From Naegleria gruberi (Eukaryota), in the NCBI GenBank assembly GCA_000004985.1, contig GG739162.1: DNA of 5,445 bases; one strand, 5' to 3'. Shown piece after piece: positions 21 through 5,445 of this stretch. The first letter of the stretch is position 1, and every line of letters begins with the position of its first letter. Below the pieces are notes generated by a model. The model did not search any database and was not told the origin of the DNA. It worked only from the letters and a program-made list of their open reading frames with translations. The position numbers and the translations under genes were made by a program.

Positions 21-22
21 TT

Positions 23-95
23 TATACCCTGTGGGACTCGAACCCACAACCCCCGGCTCCGTAGGCCGATGCTCTTCCAATTGAGCCAAGGGTAC
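23..95 (-). tRNA. Nuclear-type tRNA-Arg, anticodon ACG, 73 nt without CCA
   Basis: Reverse complement reads GTACCCT-T-G-GCTC-AATTGGAA-GAGC-A-TCGGC-CTACGGA-GCCGG-GGGTT-GTGGG-TTCGAGT-CCCAC-AGGGTAT-A. This gives a 7-bp acceptor stem (G1-U72 wobble), 4-bp D stem, 5-bp anticodon stem (U27-G43 wobble), 5-nt variable loop, 5-bp T stem with TTCGAGT loop, and discriminator A. Anticodon A34-C35-G36 follows U33 and reads Arg codon CGU. The internal Pol III A box TGGCTCAATTGG lies at 77..88 and the B box GGTTCGAGTCC at 34..44 on the minus strand. No CCA is encoded, as expected for a eukaryotic gene. Confidence 0.9.
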
Positions 96-264
96 ATATG
101 GTTTTGTTTCAACATTGCTTGTCAAGAATGCTAAAATACAGGTTCAAACAATCTCACCACCCTGGCGCTCGTGAATTTCTGTCTATGATAAATGAATAGA
201 ATGAATTGCATCCGTATTACTGCTTCTGATTCGTATCCTTATGGGCCCATATCTCGCTTTCAAA

Positions 265-282: not shown

Positions 283-2360
283 TTACTTTTCATCAATTTC
301 TTCAAGGTATTTATACGATTCCTCAACCAAACCATTTTCAGAGCTTTTAAGAAACCATTCTTTTGCTTTCGAATAATCTTGGTCTATTCCAATACCTTTA
401 AAGTATAATAATGCCAAATTATATTGAGCTTGTGCATGACCTTGTTCCGCACTTCTAAGGAACAATTCAAAAGCTTTCGTATAGTCTTTCTCAACAATAT
501 GGGAACCGTTATAATAAAATAAGGCATATTGAAAAAGAGAATTAGGATCGTTGTGTACTTCACATTGTTTAAACCATTCGAAAGCTTTCTGATAATCCTG
601 TTTTTCCAAATAAATCATTCCAATATTATATTGAGCTGCGATGTGTCCATTTTCAGCAGCCTTTAAAAACAATTCCAAACCGAGGTCAATATTCTTCTCC
701 GTACCAAATCCTTGGTAATAACAGTAAGCCAAATTGAACAAAACTTCAGAATCTTCCGTTGGCATGAGTTTTGAAAGAATTTCGAATCCTTTCGAATAAT
801 CTTTAACTGTTCCAATTCCTTTCAGATATAACCATCCTAAATTAAATTGAGCATCAGTATGTCCGTTTTCAGCAGCTTTTCCCATCCAATAAAAAGCTGT
901 TTCTGCATCCCTTTCATATAGATGCAACATTAAGGCAAGATTAAATTGTGAAGATACGAATCCTTGTTCTGCACTCTTCGTATACCATTCTATAGTTTTA
1001 GAATAATCCCTCTCAACACCTCTTCCATATTCATATAATTGCGCAAGATAACCCTGAGCATTGGCATGTCCTTGTTCAGCACTTTTCATGTACCAAATAA
1101 ATGCCTGCTCAAGTTGAGATCTTCTTTCAGATTCATCCACAAATTGATCGGTTTCGTAAACAACTCCAAGATTAAATTGTGCATCAGCATATCCTTGTTC
1201 AGCACTCTTAAGAAACCAATGTTTGGCTGGTTCCATTAGGCTATTCATGTAGTATAATAGTCCAAGATTGAACTGAGCTTTGCCATGTCCTTGTTTTGCA
1301 CTTTGATCATACCAAAAAGCTGCATTAGAGATATCTTTTTCATTGTAATATAATACTCCAAGTCTGTTCTGATCATCTGCATTTCCTTCTTTTGCTCCCT
1401 TTTCTAATTCTTCTTTGGTTTTCTCTATTTTTGGTAATTTTGATAATGTTTTGATTGAATATAGAGAACTGCTTGAAACAATTTCAACAATTTTTTCATT
1501 TTGTTGAAGAGAATCATCCACAAATTGAATAGCTTCAGGATTTTGAGAAACAGCCAAATAACAAATGTCATAATTACTTCTCATCGTGTTAGATGCAAAT
1601 TGTAGAGCTATTCCTCTATTTTTAACGCTTTCAGTAACCAATTCAACATTTCCTTTCAATGTATCTGTAGCATATTGTAAATAGGTACCATCAATGTTTA
1701 CCATTTTCTTCATCTTCTCCAAATCATTGTAATCTTGGATTGTTTTCTTTGGTAACTCAAGTTTTAAATCACTCTCAAAGTTTAAATACATGACCATTTG
1801 TTTAGGAATGAGTTCTATCACTCTTGCATCCTTTTTAACTGCTTGTTCCATGACATTCTTTGAGTACTTCCATTTTTTAGAACGAATAAATTGATAGCTG
1901 CTTGCATTTTGGTTGATAGCTCTCAAAATCACATTCCTAAATTCATGCATTTCTGTAGGAACATATTTCAGATTTAATCCATCTTCACTCAAAGCAGACA
2001 TTACAACAGATTCATTGTTAAGGAACTCACTTTTCAAATTCTTATAATTTGATTCAAAGTTTTCACGGTCAATTTCAGTAGTGTCGTTAAATATTTCTTG
2101 AAATATTCTTTCATTATCCCATCTTGAATCTTGTTCCAAAGTGAGCATTCCCAAGATGATATTCTTGATTATTTTCCATGACTTGATTTCATTCTCTAGA
2201 ATCAGTAATCTTGTTTTTTCATCCAAATTTGGTAATTCTGTATTGTTAATTTCAGTAAACAATTTTTCAAATTCCTTTTCAATATAGTCTTTAGGGCAAA
2301 CTTTTTCTTTTTCAAATATTGGCATTTCATCAGAAAAAATAACTCTTAATAAAGTAACTC
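283..2360 (-). CDS. Terminal exon, including the stop at 283..285, of a multi-exon gene. It encodes the end of a protein-kinase C-lobe (subdomains IX-XI), then DUF4116-like repeats, then about 9-10 Sel1-like repeats.
   Basis: The 680-aa ORF 283..2325 stays open upstream in the same frame to 2360 (...GA GTT ACT TTA TTA AGA GTT ATT TTT TCT GAT GAA ATG CCA). An AG acceptor precedes it at 2361..2362. Joining it to the upstream exon gives DIWSFG-VTLLRVIFSDEMPIF..., the kinase subdomain IX motif DxWSFGvxLxEl. IIKNIILGMLTLEQDSRWDNERIF then matches subdomain XI. The middle of the protein (DGLNLKYVPTEMHEFRNVILRAINQNASSYQF; DGTYLQYATDTLKGNVELVTESVKNRGIALQFASNTMRSNYDICYLAVSQNPEAIQFV) matches DUF4116-type repeats. 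The C-terminal half is made of reiterated A(Q/E)xGxxxAQ(F/Y)NLGxxYxxGxGxxxDxxKAxxW(F/Y)xK(S/A)AEqG Sel1 units. The annotated Met at 2325 is internal and not the true start. Confidence 0.85.
331..1380 (-). repeat. Tandem array of about 9-10 Sel1-like (TPR-family) repeat units of ~36 aa, encoded within the terminal exon
   Basis: Reiterated protein motifs appear: GKAQFNLGLLYY, ADAQFNLGVVYE, ANAQGYLAQLYEYGRGVERDYSKTIEWYTKSAEQG, SSQFNLALMLH, TDAQFNLGWLYLKGIGTVKDYSKGFE, EVLFNLAYCYYQGFGTEKNIDLGLELFLKAAENG, IAAQYNIGMIYLEKQDYQKAFEWFKQ, SLFQYALFYYNGSHIVEKDYTKAFELFLRSAEQG and AQAQYNLALLYFKGIGIDQDYSKAKEWFLKSSENG. The matching DNA-level reiteration is visible on the plus strand as repeated gcatgtccttgttcagcac / gcatatccttgttcagcac / gccatgtccttgttttgcac / gcatgaccttgttccgcac blocks. 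Confidence 0.75.
1486..2004 (-). repeat. About 3 DUF4116-like repeat units between the kinase domain and the Sel1 array
   Basis: Protein segments carry the recurring pattern (D)GxxLxYx(s/t)xxxxxxxxVvLxAVxQNgxALQFAS, for example LKYVPTEMHEFRNVILRAINQNASSYQFI, LQYATDTLKGNVELVTESVKNRGIALQFAS and MRSNYDICYLAVSQNPEAIQFVDDSLQQNEKIV. This matches the Pfam DUF4116 repeat type. It is recognised from memory of the family consensus and is not computed. Confidence 0.55.
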
Positions 2361-2397
2361 CTTATAAGGTTAATAAAGTTATAAGCACCAAACTTAC
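2361..2397 (-). other. Spliceosomal intron, 37 nt, phase 1
   Basis: The minus strand reads GTAAGTTTGGTGCTTATAACTTTATTAACCTTATAAG, with canonical GTAAGT donor and AG acceptor. If unspliced the reading frame runs into a stop (..KFGAYNFINLIRSYFIKSYFF*). If spliced it gives a contiguous kinase subdomain IX and shifts correctly into the frame of the 680-aa ORF (G|GA = Gly). Confidence 0.75.
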
Positions 2398-2654
2398 CAA
2401 AACTCCAAATGTCACTTTTTACTGACCATTTACCAAGACCCTGATATACAATTGGATCTCTATATCCGTTAGTGCCATATTCATCACTACTTGCATAAGA
2501 ACTTTCACTTTCACTCTCAAAATCTTCTGAGTGATATTCAGATAATTCAGAGTTGATTTCATCAAGTTTACTTGCTTCTCCCAAATCTGCTATCATGATT
2601 TTAACATTATGTTTCGTCATGTTTTTAATAAAAATATTACCAGGTTTGATATCT
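2398..2654 (-). CDS. Internal exon of the same gene. It encodes the kinase catalytic loop, activation segment and start of subdomain IX: (R)DIKPGNIFIKNMTKHNVKIMIADLGEAS...GTNGYRDPIVYQGLGKWSVKSDIWSF(G).
   Basis: The ORF-track 96-aa ORF 2330..2620 is the same frame extended upstream to 2654 (A GAT ATC AAA CCT GGT AAT ATT TTT ATT AAA AAC ATG...). Joined to the upstream exon, HR + DIKPGN forms the catalytic-loop motif HRDIKPGN. Then come DLG (a DFG variant) and the TKL-like KWSVKSDIWSFG (compare KYTEKSDVYSFG). The annotated Met at 2620 is internal. Confidence 0.8.
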
Positions 2655-2700
2655 CTTTTTCGAATATATTAAAAAAGTAATATTCGAAACATCAACTTAC
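2655..2700 (-). other. Spliceosomal intron, 46 nt, phase 2
   Basis: The minus strand reads GTAAGTTGATGTTTCGAATATTACTTTTTTAATATATTCGAAAAAG, with GTAAGT donor and AG acceptor. Unspliced, the frame hits TAA immediately after ...GFIHR. Spliced, it reconstitutes ...LHGKGFIHRDIKPGNIFI (kinase subdomain VIb). The intron contains an imperfect inverted repeat, TTCGAATATTA ... TAATATATTCGAA. Confidence 0.8.
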
Positions 2701-2745
2701 CTATGAATAAACCCTTTACCATGTAACTTTTCCAATCCCAACAAA
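2701..2745 (-). CDS. Readable 3' end of an upstream exon of the same gene (kinase subdomain VIa/VIb: ...LLGLEKLHGKGFIH-R). The exon continues 5'-ward into the N gap.
   Basis: The minus strand reads T TTG TTG GGA TTG GAA AAG TTA CAT GGT AAA GGG TTT ATT CAT AG|GTAAGT. LHxxGfIHRD is the conserved pre-catalytic-loop helix and HRD motif of eukaryotic protein kinases. The ORF-track 581-aa ORF 2697..4442 is mostly X because of the gap. Its Met at 4440..4442 abuts the gap and is not a supported start. Confidence 0.7.
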
Positions 2746-4437
2746 NNNNNNNNNNNNNNNNNNNNNNNNNNNNNNNNNNNNNNNNNNNNNNNNNNNNNNN
2801 NNNNNNNNNNNNNNNNNNNNNNNNNNNNNNNNNNNNNNNNNNNNNNNNNNNNNNNNNNNNNNNNNNNNNNNNNNNNNNNNNNNNNNNNNNNNNNNNNNNN
2901 NNNNNNNNNNNNNNNNNNNNNNNNNNNNNNNNNNNNNNNNNNNNNNNNNNNNNNNNNNNNNNNNNNNNNNNNNNNNNNNNNNNNNNNNNNNNNNNNNNNN
3001 NNNNNNNNNNNNNNNNNNNNNNNNNNNNNNNNNNNNNNNNNNNNNNNNNNNNNNNNNNNNNNNNNNNNNNNNNNNNNNNNNNNNNNNNNNNNNNNNNNNN
3101 NNNNNNNNNNNNNNNNNNNNNNNNNNNNNNNNNNNNNNNNNNNNNNNNNNNNNNNNNNNNNNNNNNNNNNNNNNNNNNNNNNNNNNNNNNNNNNNNNNNN
3201 NNNNNNNNNNNNNNNNNNNNNNNNNNNNNNNNNNNNNNNNNNNNNNNNNNNNNNNNNNNNNNNNNNNNNNNNNNNNNNNNNNNNNNNNNNNNNNNNNNNN
3301 NNNNNNNNNNNNNNNNNNNNNNNNNNNNNNNNNNNNNNNNNNNNNNNNNNNNNNNNNNNNNNNNNNNNNNNNNNNNNNNNNNNNNNNNNNNNNNNNNNNN
3401 NNNNNNNNNNNNNNNNNNNNNNNNNNNNNNNNNNNNNNNNNNNNNNNNNNNNNNNNNNNNNNNNNNNNNNNNNNNNNNNNNNNNNNNNNNNNNNNNNNNN
3501 NNNNNNNNNNNNNNNNNNNNNNNNNNNNNNNNNNNNNNNNNNNNNNNNNNNNNNNNNNNNNNNNNNNNNNNNNNNNNNNNNNNNNNNNNNNNNNNNNNNN
3601 NNNNNNNNNNNNNNNNNNNNNNNNNNNNNNNNNNNNNNNNNNNNNNNNNNNNNNNNNNNNNNNNNNNNNNNNNNNNNNNNNNNNNNNNNNNNNNNNNNNN
3701 NNNNNNNNNNNNNNNNNNNNNNNNNNNNNNNNNNNNNNNNNNNNNNNNNNNNNNNNNNNNNNNNNNNNNNNNNNNNNNNNNNNNNNNNNNNNNNNNNNNN
3801 NNNNNNNNNNNNNNNNNNNNNNNNNNNNNNNNNNNNNNNNNNNNNNNNNNNNNNNNNNNNNNNNNNNNNNNNNNNNNNNNNNNNNNNNNNNNNNNNNNNN
3901 NNNNNNNNNNNNNNNNNNNNNNNNNNNNNNNNNNNNNNNNNNNNNNNNNNNNNNNNNNNNNNNNNNNNNNNNNNNNNNNNNNNNNNNNNNNNNNNNNNNN
4001 NNNNNNNNNNNNNNNNNNNNNNNNNNNNNNNNNNNNNNNNNNNNNNNNNNNNNNNNNNNNNNNNNNNNNNNNNNNNNNNNNNNNNNNNNNNNNNNNNNNN
4101 NNNNNNNNNNNNNNNNNNNNNNNNNNNNNNNNNNNNNNNNNNNNNNNNNNNNNNNNNNNNNNNNNNNNNNNNNNNNNNNNNNNNNNNNNNNNNNNNNNNN
4201 NNNNNNNNNNNNNNNNNNNNNNNNNNNNNNNNNNNNNNNNNNNNNNNNNNNNNNNNNNNNNNNNNNNNNNNNNNNNNNNNNNNNNNNNNNNNNNNNNNNN
4301 NNNNNNNNNNNNNNNNNNNNNNNNNNNNNNNNNNNNNNNNNNNNNNNNNNNNNNNNNNNNNNNNNNNNNNNNNNNNNNNNNNNNNNNNNNNNNNNNNNNN
4401 NNNNNNNNNNNNNNNNNNNNNNNNNNNNNNNNNNNNN
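2746..4437. other. Run of 1,692 N, an assembly gap or hard-masked segment
   Basis: Uninterrupted n characters are read directly from the sequence. On the minus strand the gap interrupts the kinase gene immediately 5' of subdomain VIa. Confidence 1.
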
Positions 4438-4442
4438 CTCAT

Positions 4443-4600
4443 TAAGTGTATTTCAAATGACTGAAAATAATGTCGAACTAATTAAGGAATATTTAGTTTA
4501 TGGATCTCATTTGAGAATTGATAAAAGAAATGGTCATTTACTTTTATGTGGAGGAAATAGTAAATATATTAAAGTTTATAATTGAATTGAATCAATTGAC
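4443..4600 (-). promoter_or_regulatory. 158-bp AT-rich intergenic spacer. It lies between the stop of the upstream GPI-anchored-protein gene and the gap-truncated 5' region of the kinase gene. It presumably holds the 3' UTR/poly(A) site of the former and the promoter/5' UTR of the latter.
   Basis: No ORF is conserved across it. A stop (TAA) lies in the kinase frame about 20 codons before the gap edge. Positional inference only. Confidence 0.3.
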
Positions 4601-5445
4601 TTAAAACTGGATAATGAAAATTAAACTAAGCAACAGCAATAACATTAAGGAACAAGCAAAATTTCCATTCGATTCTCCAACTCTTTCACTTGAAGTACTT
4701 CCACTACCTTTCACACCACTATTCGCTGTTGTTGGTTGACTACTTTTAACAGGAGTGACATTTGAAGTTGAAGCTGTCACATTTACAACAGGAGTATTAG
4801 TAGTGTAGTACGGTCCTAACCAATAAGCTGGAAGAGCTTCTCCATGAGGACCAAACATGACAGCAGCTGATTTACCATCACTTCTAGTATTAGCTCTGTA
4901 AGTGACATTTCTTGCTGACATGATCAAATCATATTGATCATTTCTATGAATAATATATTGATTATTTTCAATAATTATATCAGTAATACGTTCTGGATAT
5001 GCACCATTTTGAGGAGAAATCATTGAAACCCAAACATTGTTATCCTGCAAGCTTCCCAAAATGTTATTCGAAATGACATTAAATTGAGTAATCCAACCAT
5101 TAGTTGACAAGGTAGCATTATCATTATACCATAGAGAATCATTCCTTGCACCAGAATGCATTTTAAAAGAGTGGTATCCTCCATCAATTGAAACCCCAGC
5201 AAAATGATTATGTCCAAAGAAAGTTTTGTAACATTGGGTGCATCTCATATTGTGAAATTTCGTATACTTGGCATAGTTTCCCATAAATGCAGATTTAGCA
5301 ATGGACCCAAAGAAATTTCCCTGTGTAGTTGCTGTATTACCAACTGCAATATTGTCGATGTAGAAGAATTCTTGAGGATTGTAAAATGAAGAAATTGGAA
5401 TTCTTCTATAAGGATCATCAAATATCCAATAATAAGGTTCGCCAA
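4601..5445 (-). CDS. 5'-partial gene for a secreted, N-glycosylated, Ser/Thr-rich protein with a C-terminal GPI-anchor-like signal. Its N-terminal ~230-aa globular domain is unassigned. The stop is at 4601..4603.
   Basis: The ORF-track 227-aa ORF 4601..5284 stays open in the same frame to the window edge. There is no stop and no ATG upstream of 5284. The first full codon starts at 5443 and reads GEPYYWIFDDPYRRIPISSFYNPQEFFYIDNIAVGNTATTQGNFFGSIAKSAF-MGNYAKY.... The C-terminus has a Ser/Thr/Asn/Val-rich low-complexity stalk (TTNTPVVNVTASTSNVTPVKSSQPTTANSGVKGSGSTSS). After small residues (ESNGN) the protein ends in a hydrophobic tail, FACSLMLLLLLSLIFIIQF*. That is the classic omega site plus hydrophobic GPI signal of fungal cell-wall proteins. 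Several N-x-S/T sequons are present: NDS, NAT and NVT three times. Confidence 0.75.
   Translation of the reverse strand, partial: GEPYYWIFDDPYRRIPISSFYNPQEFFYIDNIAVGNTATTQGNFFGSIAKSAFMGNYAKYTKFHNMRCTQCYKTFFGHNHFAGVSIDGGYHSFKMHSGARNDSLWYNDNATLSTNGWITQFNVISNNILGSLQDNNVWVSMISPQNGAYPERITDIIIENNQYIIHRNDQYDLIMSARNVTYRANTRSDGKSAAVMFGPHGEALPAYWLGPYYTTNTPVVNVTASTSNVTPVKSSQPTTANSGVKGSGSTSSERVGESNGNFACSLMLLLLLSLIFIIQF

What the first reader, a model, noticed from the sequence alone, without database searches (positions are those of the whole stretch)
283..2745. Three ORF-track ORFs are one spliced gene with two micro-introns (46 nt and 37 nt)
Read as separate ORFs, the window shows a 15-aa fragment ending ...GFIHR*, a 96-aa ORF starting at an internal Met, and a 680-aa Sel1 ORF. 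Both junctions have perfect GTAAGT donors and AG acceptors: 2700 down to 2655, and 2397 down to 2361. Splicing restores two diagnostic kinase motifs exactly, HR|DIKPGN and DIWSF(G)|VTLLRVIF. It also brings the reading frame into register with the 680-aa ORF. Without splicing, each frame terminates within 1-20 codons. Two independent motif restorations are very unlikely by chance. This also shows the locus is eukaryotic, so prokaryotic gene-calling would mis-describe it.
Basis: seen in the sequence. Interest (0 to 1): 0.7.

Follow-up and report, generated by a model that had tools for sequence, protein, structure and literature searches.

The report
Spliced Naegleria kinase gene, two short introns
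The three open reading frames are pieces of one ordinary intron-containing gene of the amoeba Naegleria gruberi, a protein kinase with a repeat-rich tail; the proposed splicing is well supported and improves on the public gene model, but it is routine eukaryotic biology.

Summary
The window is a complete 5445-bp scaffold of Naegleria gruberi, with a 1692-N gap at 2746-4437. On the minus strand, two interruptions (2700-2655, 46 nt; 2397-2361, 37 nt) each begin with GTAAGT. These are the only two GTAAGT on that strand. Each interruption ends at the first AG downstream of its donor.

Removing both gives one open frame of 792 codons, running from the gap edge to the TAA at 285-283. The product has a single continuous Pkinase match (64.4 bits, profile 109-260 of 263). 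Four DUF4116 repeats and seven Sel1 repeats follow it.

Every other acceptor I tried scores lower:
- 40-nt intron: 58.2 bits
- 55-nt intron: 54.3 bits
- 91-nt intron, the acceptor used in the public model: 49.2 bits

The public model (XP_002668285.1) gives no kinase match at all. It starts at the internal Met at 2620 and uses the same donor for intron 2.

Solved kinases and kinase-Sel1 proteins align across both junctions (HR|DIKPGN and DIWSF|GVTLL).

No transcript data could be reached, so excision is inferred rather than shown. A 37-nt intron is short for Naegleria. The 5' half of the kinase lies in the gap.

It is an annotation correction and scores low on interest.

The parts
2701..2745 (-). 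3' end of an upstream coding exon. It encodes LLGLEKLHGKGFIHR, the helix before the catalytic loop plus H and R of the HRD motif. The exon continues into the N-run, so its true 5' end is unknown.
   Evidence: tblastn of P0004, P0006 and RIPK1 aligns here in frame -2 up to HR.
2655..2700 (-). Intron 1: 46 nt, phase 2, GTAAGT...AG, 21.7% G+C. It carries stops in both the exon-1 and exon-2 frames. It contains an imperfect 10-bp hairpin.
   Evidence: first AG after the donor. Removing it restores HRDIKPGN.
2398..2654 (-). Exon 2, 257 nt. It encodes the catalytic loop DIKPGN, DLG (a DFG variant), an acidic Ser/Glu-rich activation-segment insert, GYRDP, and KSDIWSF.
2361..2397 (-). Intron 2: 37 nt, phase 1, GTAAGT...AG, 27% G+C. 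A TTAAC branch-point-like motif lies 9 nt before the AG. A second AG 3 nt downstream (2359-2358) makes a tandem AAG|GAG acceptor.
   Evidence: Pkinase scores by acceptor: 37 nt = 64.4, 40 nt = 58.2, 55 nt = 54.3, 91 nt = 49.2 bits.
283..2360 (-). Exon 3, ending at the TAA stop (285-283). It encodes the kinase C-lobe (GVTLLRVIF... to about 2095), a linker, the DUF4116 repeats (about 2019-1450) and the Sel1 repeats (about 1370-320).
   Evidence: Pkinase 2-189; DUF4116 107.8 bits in 4 stretches; Sel1 215.7 bits in 7 stretches. Coordinates.
2746..4437 (.). Scaffold gap of 1692 N. It hides the 5' part of this gene: the kinase N-lobe (profile positions 1-108), the start codon, and any further introns.
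   Evidence: N-run; the Pkinase match starts at profile position 109.

Best explanation
Positions 283-2745 on the minus strand hold the 3' three exons of one nuclear gene of Naegleria gruberi (locus NAEGRDRAFT_54864). Two short U2-type GT-AG spliceosomal introns interrupt it, one of 46 nt (2700-2655) and one of 37 nt (2397-2361).

The spliceosome would pair U1 with the GTAAGT donors. It would use an A in a TTAAC/TTAAT-like branch site and ligate at the first downstream AG. The resulting mRNA encodes a protein kinase whose catalytic loop (HRDIKPGN) and subdomain IX (DIWSFGVTLL) are each split by an intron.

Four DUF4116 repeats and seven Sel1 repeats follow the kinase. These probably serve as protein-interaction modules that localise or regulate the kinase.

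Shown: the signals, the frame restoration and the continuity of homology. Inferred: actual excision in RNA, the branch sites, catalytic activity and the role of the repeats.

The start of the gene lies in the scaffold gap. The public model is a truncated, mis-spliced version of this gene.
For: - The only two GTAAGT on this strand sit exactly at the two frame breaks.
- Each proposed acceptor is the first AG after its donor.
- Both introns are lower in G+C than the exons (0.22 and 0.27 against about 0.32). Their lengths are not multiples of 3, and they carry stops in the exon frames they interrupt.
- The spliced product gives one Pkinase stretch, residues 2-189 against profile 109-260 of 263. 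It scores 64.4 bits against a cutoff of 31.7.
- Scores fall stepwise for the alternative acceptors: 58.2, 54.3 and 49.2 bits. The score is 27.7 bits, below the cutoff, when exon 1 is left out, and the public model gives no kinase match.
- RIPK1 aligns in one stretch through both junctions. Two Cdc7 segments each cover one junction.
- tblastn of three unrelated kinases changes frame exactly at HR|D.
- Kinase-Sel1 proteins P0057 and P0033 align as one HSP over residues 1-118.
- The organism is an intron-containing eukaryote, with 1.7 exons per gene. Workers on N. fowleri set a minimum intron length of 30 bp from their predicted genes (PMC8296547).
- The public model uses the same donor at 2397.
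Against: - No transcript evidence could be reached. The protein collection holds no transcript-derived version of this gene.
- 37 and 46 nt are short against the reported mean of 203 bp for N. gruberi (PMC8296547) and the median of 80 bp for N. lovaniensis (PMC6125883).
- Several acceptors for intron 2 keep the frame (40, 55, 91, 97, 109 nt), so the exact 3' site rests on homology score and signal quality.
- The canonical APE glutamate is absent (GYRDPIV), and the N-lobe cannot be seen. Catalytic competence is therefore unproven.
Confidence: 0.85

Rival explanations
1. The public gene model is right. Translation starts at the Met at 2620, and a single 91-nt intron (2397-2307) joins DIWSF to EKVCPK. 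The 15-aa fragment upstream is not part of the gene.
For: It is the deposited model, XP_002668285.1. A 91-nt intron is closer to typical Naegleria intron lengths. It is in frame and uses the same GTAAGT donor.
Against: - The product has no detectable kinase domain (protein 5; precomputed Pfam), although it keeps 74 kinase-like residues.
- It deletes 18 residues (GVTLLRVIFSDEMPIFEK) that align to subdomain IX and helix F of RIPK1, Cdc7 and P0057.
- Its acceptor is the fifth AG after the donor and follows a purine-rich stretch (35% pyrimidine against 60%).
- It ignores the HR|D frame switch at a second GTAAGT.
Confidence: 0.05
2. Intron 2 uses the tandem acceptor 3 nt downstream (a 40-nt intron, 2397-2358). 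It does so either exclusively or as an alternative isoform of the NAGNAG type. The product reads DIWSF-VTLL, without the glycine.
For: AAG|GAG offers two adjacent AGs, both in frame. The 40-nt model still scores 58.2 bits on Pkinase.
Against: The 37-nt model scores 6 bits higher. It restores the nearly invariant glycine of subdomain IX, which is seen in P0004, P0006, P0057 and the Cdc7 alignment. The upstream AG is the first one met after the branch site.
Confidence: 0.08
3. The locus is a decaying pseudogene or an assembly artefact. The two interruptions are insertions or frameshifts rather than introns, and the ORFs are not expressed as one protein.
For: The scaffold is tiny (5.4 kb) and a third of it is gap. 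The gene has no close homologue outside this record. The APE motif is degenerate.
Against: - Random insertions would not both start with GTAAGT, end at the first AG and restore frame and motifs. The chance of GTAAGT at a given site is about 4.6e-4.
- After splicing, 792 codons are open in DNA of 33% G+C.
- The DUF4116 and Sel1 repeats are all intact and score strongly.
Confidence: 0.02

Closest known systems
Public model of the same locus: XP_002668285.1 / EFC35541.1 / UniProt D2W5W1_NAEGR (NAEGRDRAFT_54864), 'predicted protein', 748 aa
   Same: Same scaffold, same strand, same stop codon and the same donor at 2397. It is identical over MTKHNV...DIWSF and from EKVCPK to the end.
   Different: It starts at the internal Met at 2620 and lacks exon 1 and intron 1. 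It uses the acceptor at 2307 (91-nt intron), which deletes 18 kinase residues. As a result no kinase domain is recognised in it.
Short U2-type GT-AG spliceosomal introns of Naegleria and other protists
   Same: GTAAGT donor, AG acceptor, A+T-rich interior, a branch-site-like TTAAC, and phases 2 and 1. Naegleria genes average 1.7-2 exons (PMC8296547).
   Different: At 37 and 46 nt they lie well below the reported mean for N. gruberi (203 bp) and the median for N. lovaniensis (80 bp). They are above the 30-bp minimum used for N. fowleri read mapping.
Protein kinase + Sel1-repeat proteins, for example Tritrichomonas musculus P0040/P0059, chytrid P0057, and many bacterial 'SEL1-like repeat protein' kinases such as P0020 and P0060
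   Same: An N-terminal Pkinase domain followed by a long C-terminal Sel1 array. The kinase regions align across the junction sites.
   Different: This protein has four DUF4116 repeats between the kinase and the Sel1 array. None of the listed hits with a kinase domain also carries DUF4116 (PF13475). The kinase is only about 30% identical to them.
RIPK1 and Cdc7 kinase domains (PDB 9mzy, 7p5z)
   Same: These are the best solved-structure matches. RIPK1 aligns in one stretch from the helix before HRD through DLG to subdomain IX and beyond. Two Cdc7 segments each cover one junction.
   Different: E-values are only about 1e-7. The Naegleria protein has an acidic insert in the activation segment. 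No kinase-group assignment follows from these matches.

Membership tests
U2-type GT-AG spliceosomal intron | 5' splice site GT within an extended consensus (GTAAGT) | tested here: met
   GTAAGT at 2700 and 2397. These are the only two copies on the strand.
U2-type GT-AG spliceosomal intron | 3' splice site AG, normally the first AG downstream of the branch site | tested here: met
   The AGs at 2656-2655 and 2362-2361 are the first AG after each donor hexamer.
U2-type GT-AG spliceosomal intron | Branch-point motif (yTnAy) 10-40 nt upstream of the AG | tested here: inconclusive
   TTAAC lies 9 nt before the AG of intron 2, and TTAAT/ATTAC lie 15-23 nt before the AG of intron 1 (read). Such motifs are frequent by chance in A+T-rich DNA.
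U2-type GT-AG spliceosomal intron | Removal restores the reading frame and continuity of homology; the interior is non-coding | tested here: met
   One ORF of 792 codons results. Stops lie in the exon frames each intron interrupts, and the lengths are 46 and 37 nt. There is a single Pkinase stretch across both junctions.
U2-type GT-AG spliceosomal intron | Excision observed in RNA | not testable with these tools
   No transcript collection for N. gruberi is reachable, and no transcript-derived protein was found.
Eukaryotic protein kinase (Pfam PF00069) | Profile match above the curated cutoff | tested here: met
   64.4 bits against a cutoff of 31.7, profile positions 109-260 of 263.
Eukaryotic protein kinase (Pfam PF00069) | Catalytic loop HRDxKxxN and Mg-binding DFG | tested here: met
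   HRDIKPGN is present only after intron 1 is removed. DLG stands in place of DFG.
Eukaryotic protein kinase (Pfam PF00069) | APE motif at the end of the activation segment | tested here: not met
   The sequence reads GYRDPIV, with no glutamate at the APE position. Some active kinases lack this glutamate.
Eukaryotic protein kinase (Pfam PF00069) | N-lobe: Gly-rich loop, VAIK lysine, helix-C glutamate | not testable with these tools
   This part lies in the 1692-N gap.
   PK_Tyr_Ser-Thr scores 34.1 bits against 64.4 for Pkinase. The best solved matches mix TKL members (RIPK1, SYMRK) with non-TKL kinases (Cdc7, GCN2, FUS3).
Sel1 repeat protein (PF08238) | Multiple Sel1 repeats above the cutoff | tested here: met
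   215.7 bits, 7 stretches.
DUF4116 repeat (PF13475) | Profile match above the cutoff | tested here: met
   107.8 bits, 4 stretches.

The most novel reading that the evidence does not exclude
The 37-nt intron may be a real, efficiently spliced micro-intron near the lower length limit for Naegleria. Its tandem AAG|GAG acceptor could then produce isoforms with and without the subdomain-IX glycine. Separately, the kinase-DUF4116-Sel1 arrangement may be a Naegleria-specific signalling architecture that the public annotation missed. If gene predictors routinely skip introns this short, other Naegleria kinases may be hidden in the same way.
Probability: 0.2. Interest if true: 0.25.

Novelty: new member of a known kind. 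Interest (0 to 1): 0.15.

Why it matters
The practical result is a corrected gene model. A Naegleria gruberi 'predicted protein', annotated only with repeat domains, is really a protein kinase fused to DUF4116 and Sel1 repeats.

The case also shows that reading eukaryotic DNA with prokaryote-style ORF calling splits genes at short introns. In addition, the original eukaryotic gene predictor appears to have avoided a 37-nt intron and removed part of a conserved domain as a result.

It does not bear on any open biological question.

Tried and rejected
- Exact look-ups of the 680-aa ORF and of the public protein, made to find other contigs or a gap-filled copy, returned nothing.
- The spliced protein could not be submitted to the exhaustive HMMER search. 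Exon 2 alone gave only four weak hits.
- I counted GT..AG pairings that keep the frame open. There were 2915, so frame continuity alone is worthless as evidence.
- GTAAGT copy number is not above chance.
- A 22-mer from the end of exon 2 hit one metagenome contig, L001. It is an unrelated kinase gene, probably from a ciliate: KSDIWSFG is followed directly by LLIYELY, there is no intron there, and the coding frames contain in-frame TAA/TAG/TGA codons. I judge the match a chance or codon-level coincidence, not an orthologue. The bacterial and archaeal genome collection had no match.
- The literature search found no published N. gruberi splice-site consensus or intron-length distribution in the held library. 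The supplementary table of PMC6142364 was cut off before the Naegleria row.
- The 'TKL' assignment could not be confirmed.
Full report
**What the window is.** A protein search with the conceptually spliced product returned a 748-aa 'predicted protein [Naegleria gruberi]' whose only contig is 5445 bases long, the length of this window. Its accessions are EFC35541.1, XP_002668285.1 and UniProt D2W5W1, locus NAEGRDRAFT_54864. Naegleria gruberi is a heterolobosean amoeboflagellate. The window is therefore a complete small scaffold of a published eukaryotic genome. It has 33% G+C and a run of 1692 N at 2746-4437.

**Check of the observation.** On the minus strand, a 15-codon fragment (LLGLEKLHGKGFIHR) follows the gap. 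It stops at the TAA that lies inside a GTAAGT starting at 2700. The next frame carries DIKPGN...DIWSF; its ORF as listed begins at the Met at 2620 and is 96 aa long. A second GTAAGT starts at 2397. The 680-aa ORF (283-2325) is open upstream only as far as a TAA at 2364-2362.

The two GTAAGT are the only ones on this strand. The AGs that end the proposed 46-nt and 37-nt introns are in each case the first AG after the donor hexamer. Removing both segments gives one open frame of 792 codons ending at the TAA at 285-283. Intron 1 is phase 2 and intron 2 is phase 1.

Three small corrections apply:
- The exon-2 frame runs 22 codons, not 20 or fewer, past the donor before it stops.
- The count of GTAAGT is not above chance. 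About 1.7 are expected per strand, and 35% of shuffles have two or more.
- 2915 different GT..AG pairings keep the frame open.

The informative facts are therefore the position of the signals and the homology, not frame continuity.

**Does the kinase homology bridge the junctions?** Yes.
- The spliced product gives one continuous Pkinase stretch, residues 2-189 against profile positions 109-260 of 263.
- The 37-nt splice without exon 1 scores 27.7 bits, below the cutoff of 31.7. The public model itself has no kinase match.
- phmmer against solved structures aligns RIPK1 in one stretch: [20 protein letters not shown]...KSDVYSFAVVLWAIFANKEP against gleklhgkgfihrdikpgni...ksdiwsfgvtllrvifsdemp. 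Two Cdc7 segments each cover one junction.
- tblastn of three unrelated kinases against the raw window gives one HSP in frame -2 ending at HR and another in frame -3 starting at RD. Their query coordinates are contiguous.
- Two kinase-Sel1 proteins from other organisms (P0057, P0033) align as single HSPs over residues 1-118.

**Which acceptor for intron 2?** The public model uses the same donor (2397) but the acceptor at 2307. This deletes GVTLLRVIFSDEMPIFEK. Four points favour the 37-nt acceptor:
- It scores 15 bits higher.
- The deleted residues align to subdomain IX and helix F of other kinases.
- It is the first AG after the donor.
- It has the more pyrimidine-rich upstream tract, 60% against 35%.

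A second AG 3 nt downstream (AAG|GAG) is also in frame and would drop only the glycine. It scores 6 bits lower. I cannot exclude it as a minor isoform.

**Is such a short intron plausible in this organism?** Reported figures:
- N. gruberi: 1.7 exons per gene, mean intron length 203 bp.
- N. fowleri: mean intron length 126-144 bp. Reads were mapped with a minimum intron of 30 bp, 'based on an assessment of predicted genes' (PMC8296547).
- N. lovaniensis: median intron length 80 bp (PMC6125883).

So 37 and 46 nt are at the short end but inside the range those authors allowed. I could not find a published length distribution or splice-site logo for N. gruberi in the held library. Both introns are lower in G+C than the exons, 0.22 and 0.27 against about 0.32. 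Both contain branch-site-like TTAAC/TTAAT motifs, which is weak evidence in A+T-rich DNA.

**What the gene encodes.** After the kinase C-lobe come four DUF4116 repeats (107.8 bits) and seven Sel1 repeats (215.7 bits). The kinase has HRDIKPGN, DLG in place of DFG, and a long acidic Ser/Glu-rich insert in the activation segment. It has GYRDPIV where APE is expected. The N-lobe lies in the gap, so catalytic competence cannot be judged.

Kinase plus Sel1 is a common architecture in both bacteria and eukaryotes, with many such hits. None of the listed kinase-bearing hits also has DUF4116. I infer that the repeats act as protein-interaction modules for a signalling kinase. This was not tested. PK_Tyr_Ser-Thr scores 34 bits against 64 for Pkinase, and the best solved matches mix TKL and non-TKL kinases.

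**Rivals.**
- The public two-exon model is possible but disfavoured, for the reasons given above.
- A pseudogene or assembly artefact does not explain two interruptions that both begin with GTAAGT, end at the first AG and restore both frame and motifs. It also does not explain 792 open codons in A+T-rich DNA.
- What is missing is direct RNA evidence. The protein collection has no transcript-derived version of this gene, and exact look-ups found no other contig.

**Verdict.** Confidence is higher for intron 1 and for the donor of intron 2, and somewhat lower for the exact 37-nt acceptor. The finding is an ordinary spliced eukaryotic gene in a published genome. The only new element is a better gene model, which reveals a kinase domain that the public annotation lacks. 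Interest is low.

Noticed in passing
window 22-96 (-): A tRNA-Arg (anticodon ACG) gene lies 187 nt downstream of the kinase gene's stop codon on the same strand. A run of T follows it (a Pol III terminator-like tract), and no CCA is encoded. ARAGORN and Rfam agree (62.8 bits).
   Followed up: yes
window 4601-5443 (-): An uninterrupted 280-codon reading frame runs off the window end. It ends in a Ser/Thr-rich stretch and a hydrophobic tail (LMLLLLLSLIFIIQF), which suggests a surface or GPI-anchored protein. There is no Pfam match; the best is E = 0.2.
   Followed up: partly
window 4439-4585 (+): A 48-codon open frame emerges from the N-run and ends at a TAA (SLSVFQMTENNVELIKEYLVYGSHLRIDKRNGHLLLCGGNSKYIKVYN). 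It is probably the last part of a gene whose body is hidden in the gap, lying divergent to the kinase gene. There is no Pfam match.
   Followed up: partly
window 2655-2700 (-): Intron 1 contains an imperfect inverted repeat (TTCGAATATT ... AATATATTCGAA). It folds into a 10-bp hairpin of -7.9 kcal/mol, and only 2.8% of mononucleotide shuffles fold as well or better. Whether it matters for splicing of so short an intron is unknown.
   Followed up: partly
window 2356-2365 (-): Intron 2 ends in a tandem acceptor, AAG|GAG. Use of the second AG would remove only the conserved glycine of DIWSFG. This would be a possible NAGNAG-type alternative splice.
   Followed up: partly
window 2480-2570 (-): The activation segment of the kinase carries a long acidic, serine-rich insert (SELSEYHSEDFESESESSYASSDEY). 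Most of it is absent from the aligned kinases, and it looks like a cluster of potential phosphorylation sites.
   Followed up: no
L001 1-1251 (metagenome contig Ga0172371_10305995): This contig shares an exact 22-mer (KSDIWSFG codons) with exon 2 but is an unrelated kinase gene. In-frame TAA/TAG/TGA codons in it and in the neighbouring kinesin-like gene suggest an organism with a variant genetic code, such as a ciliate.
   Followed up: partly
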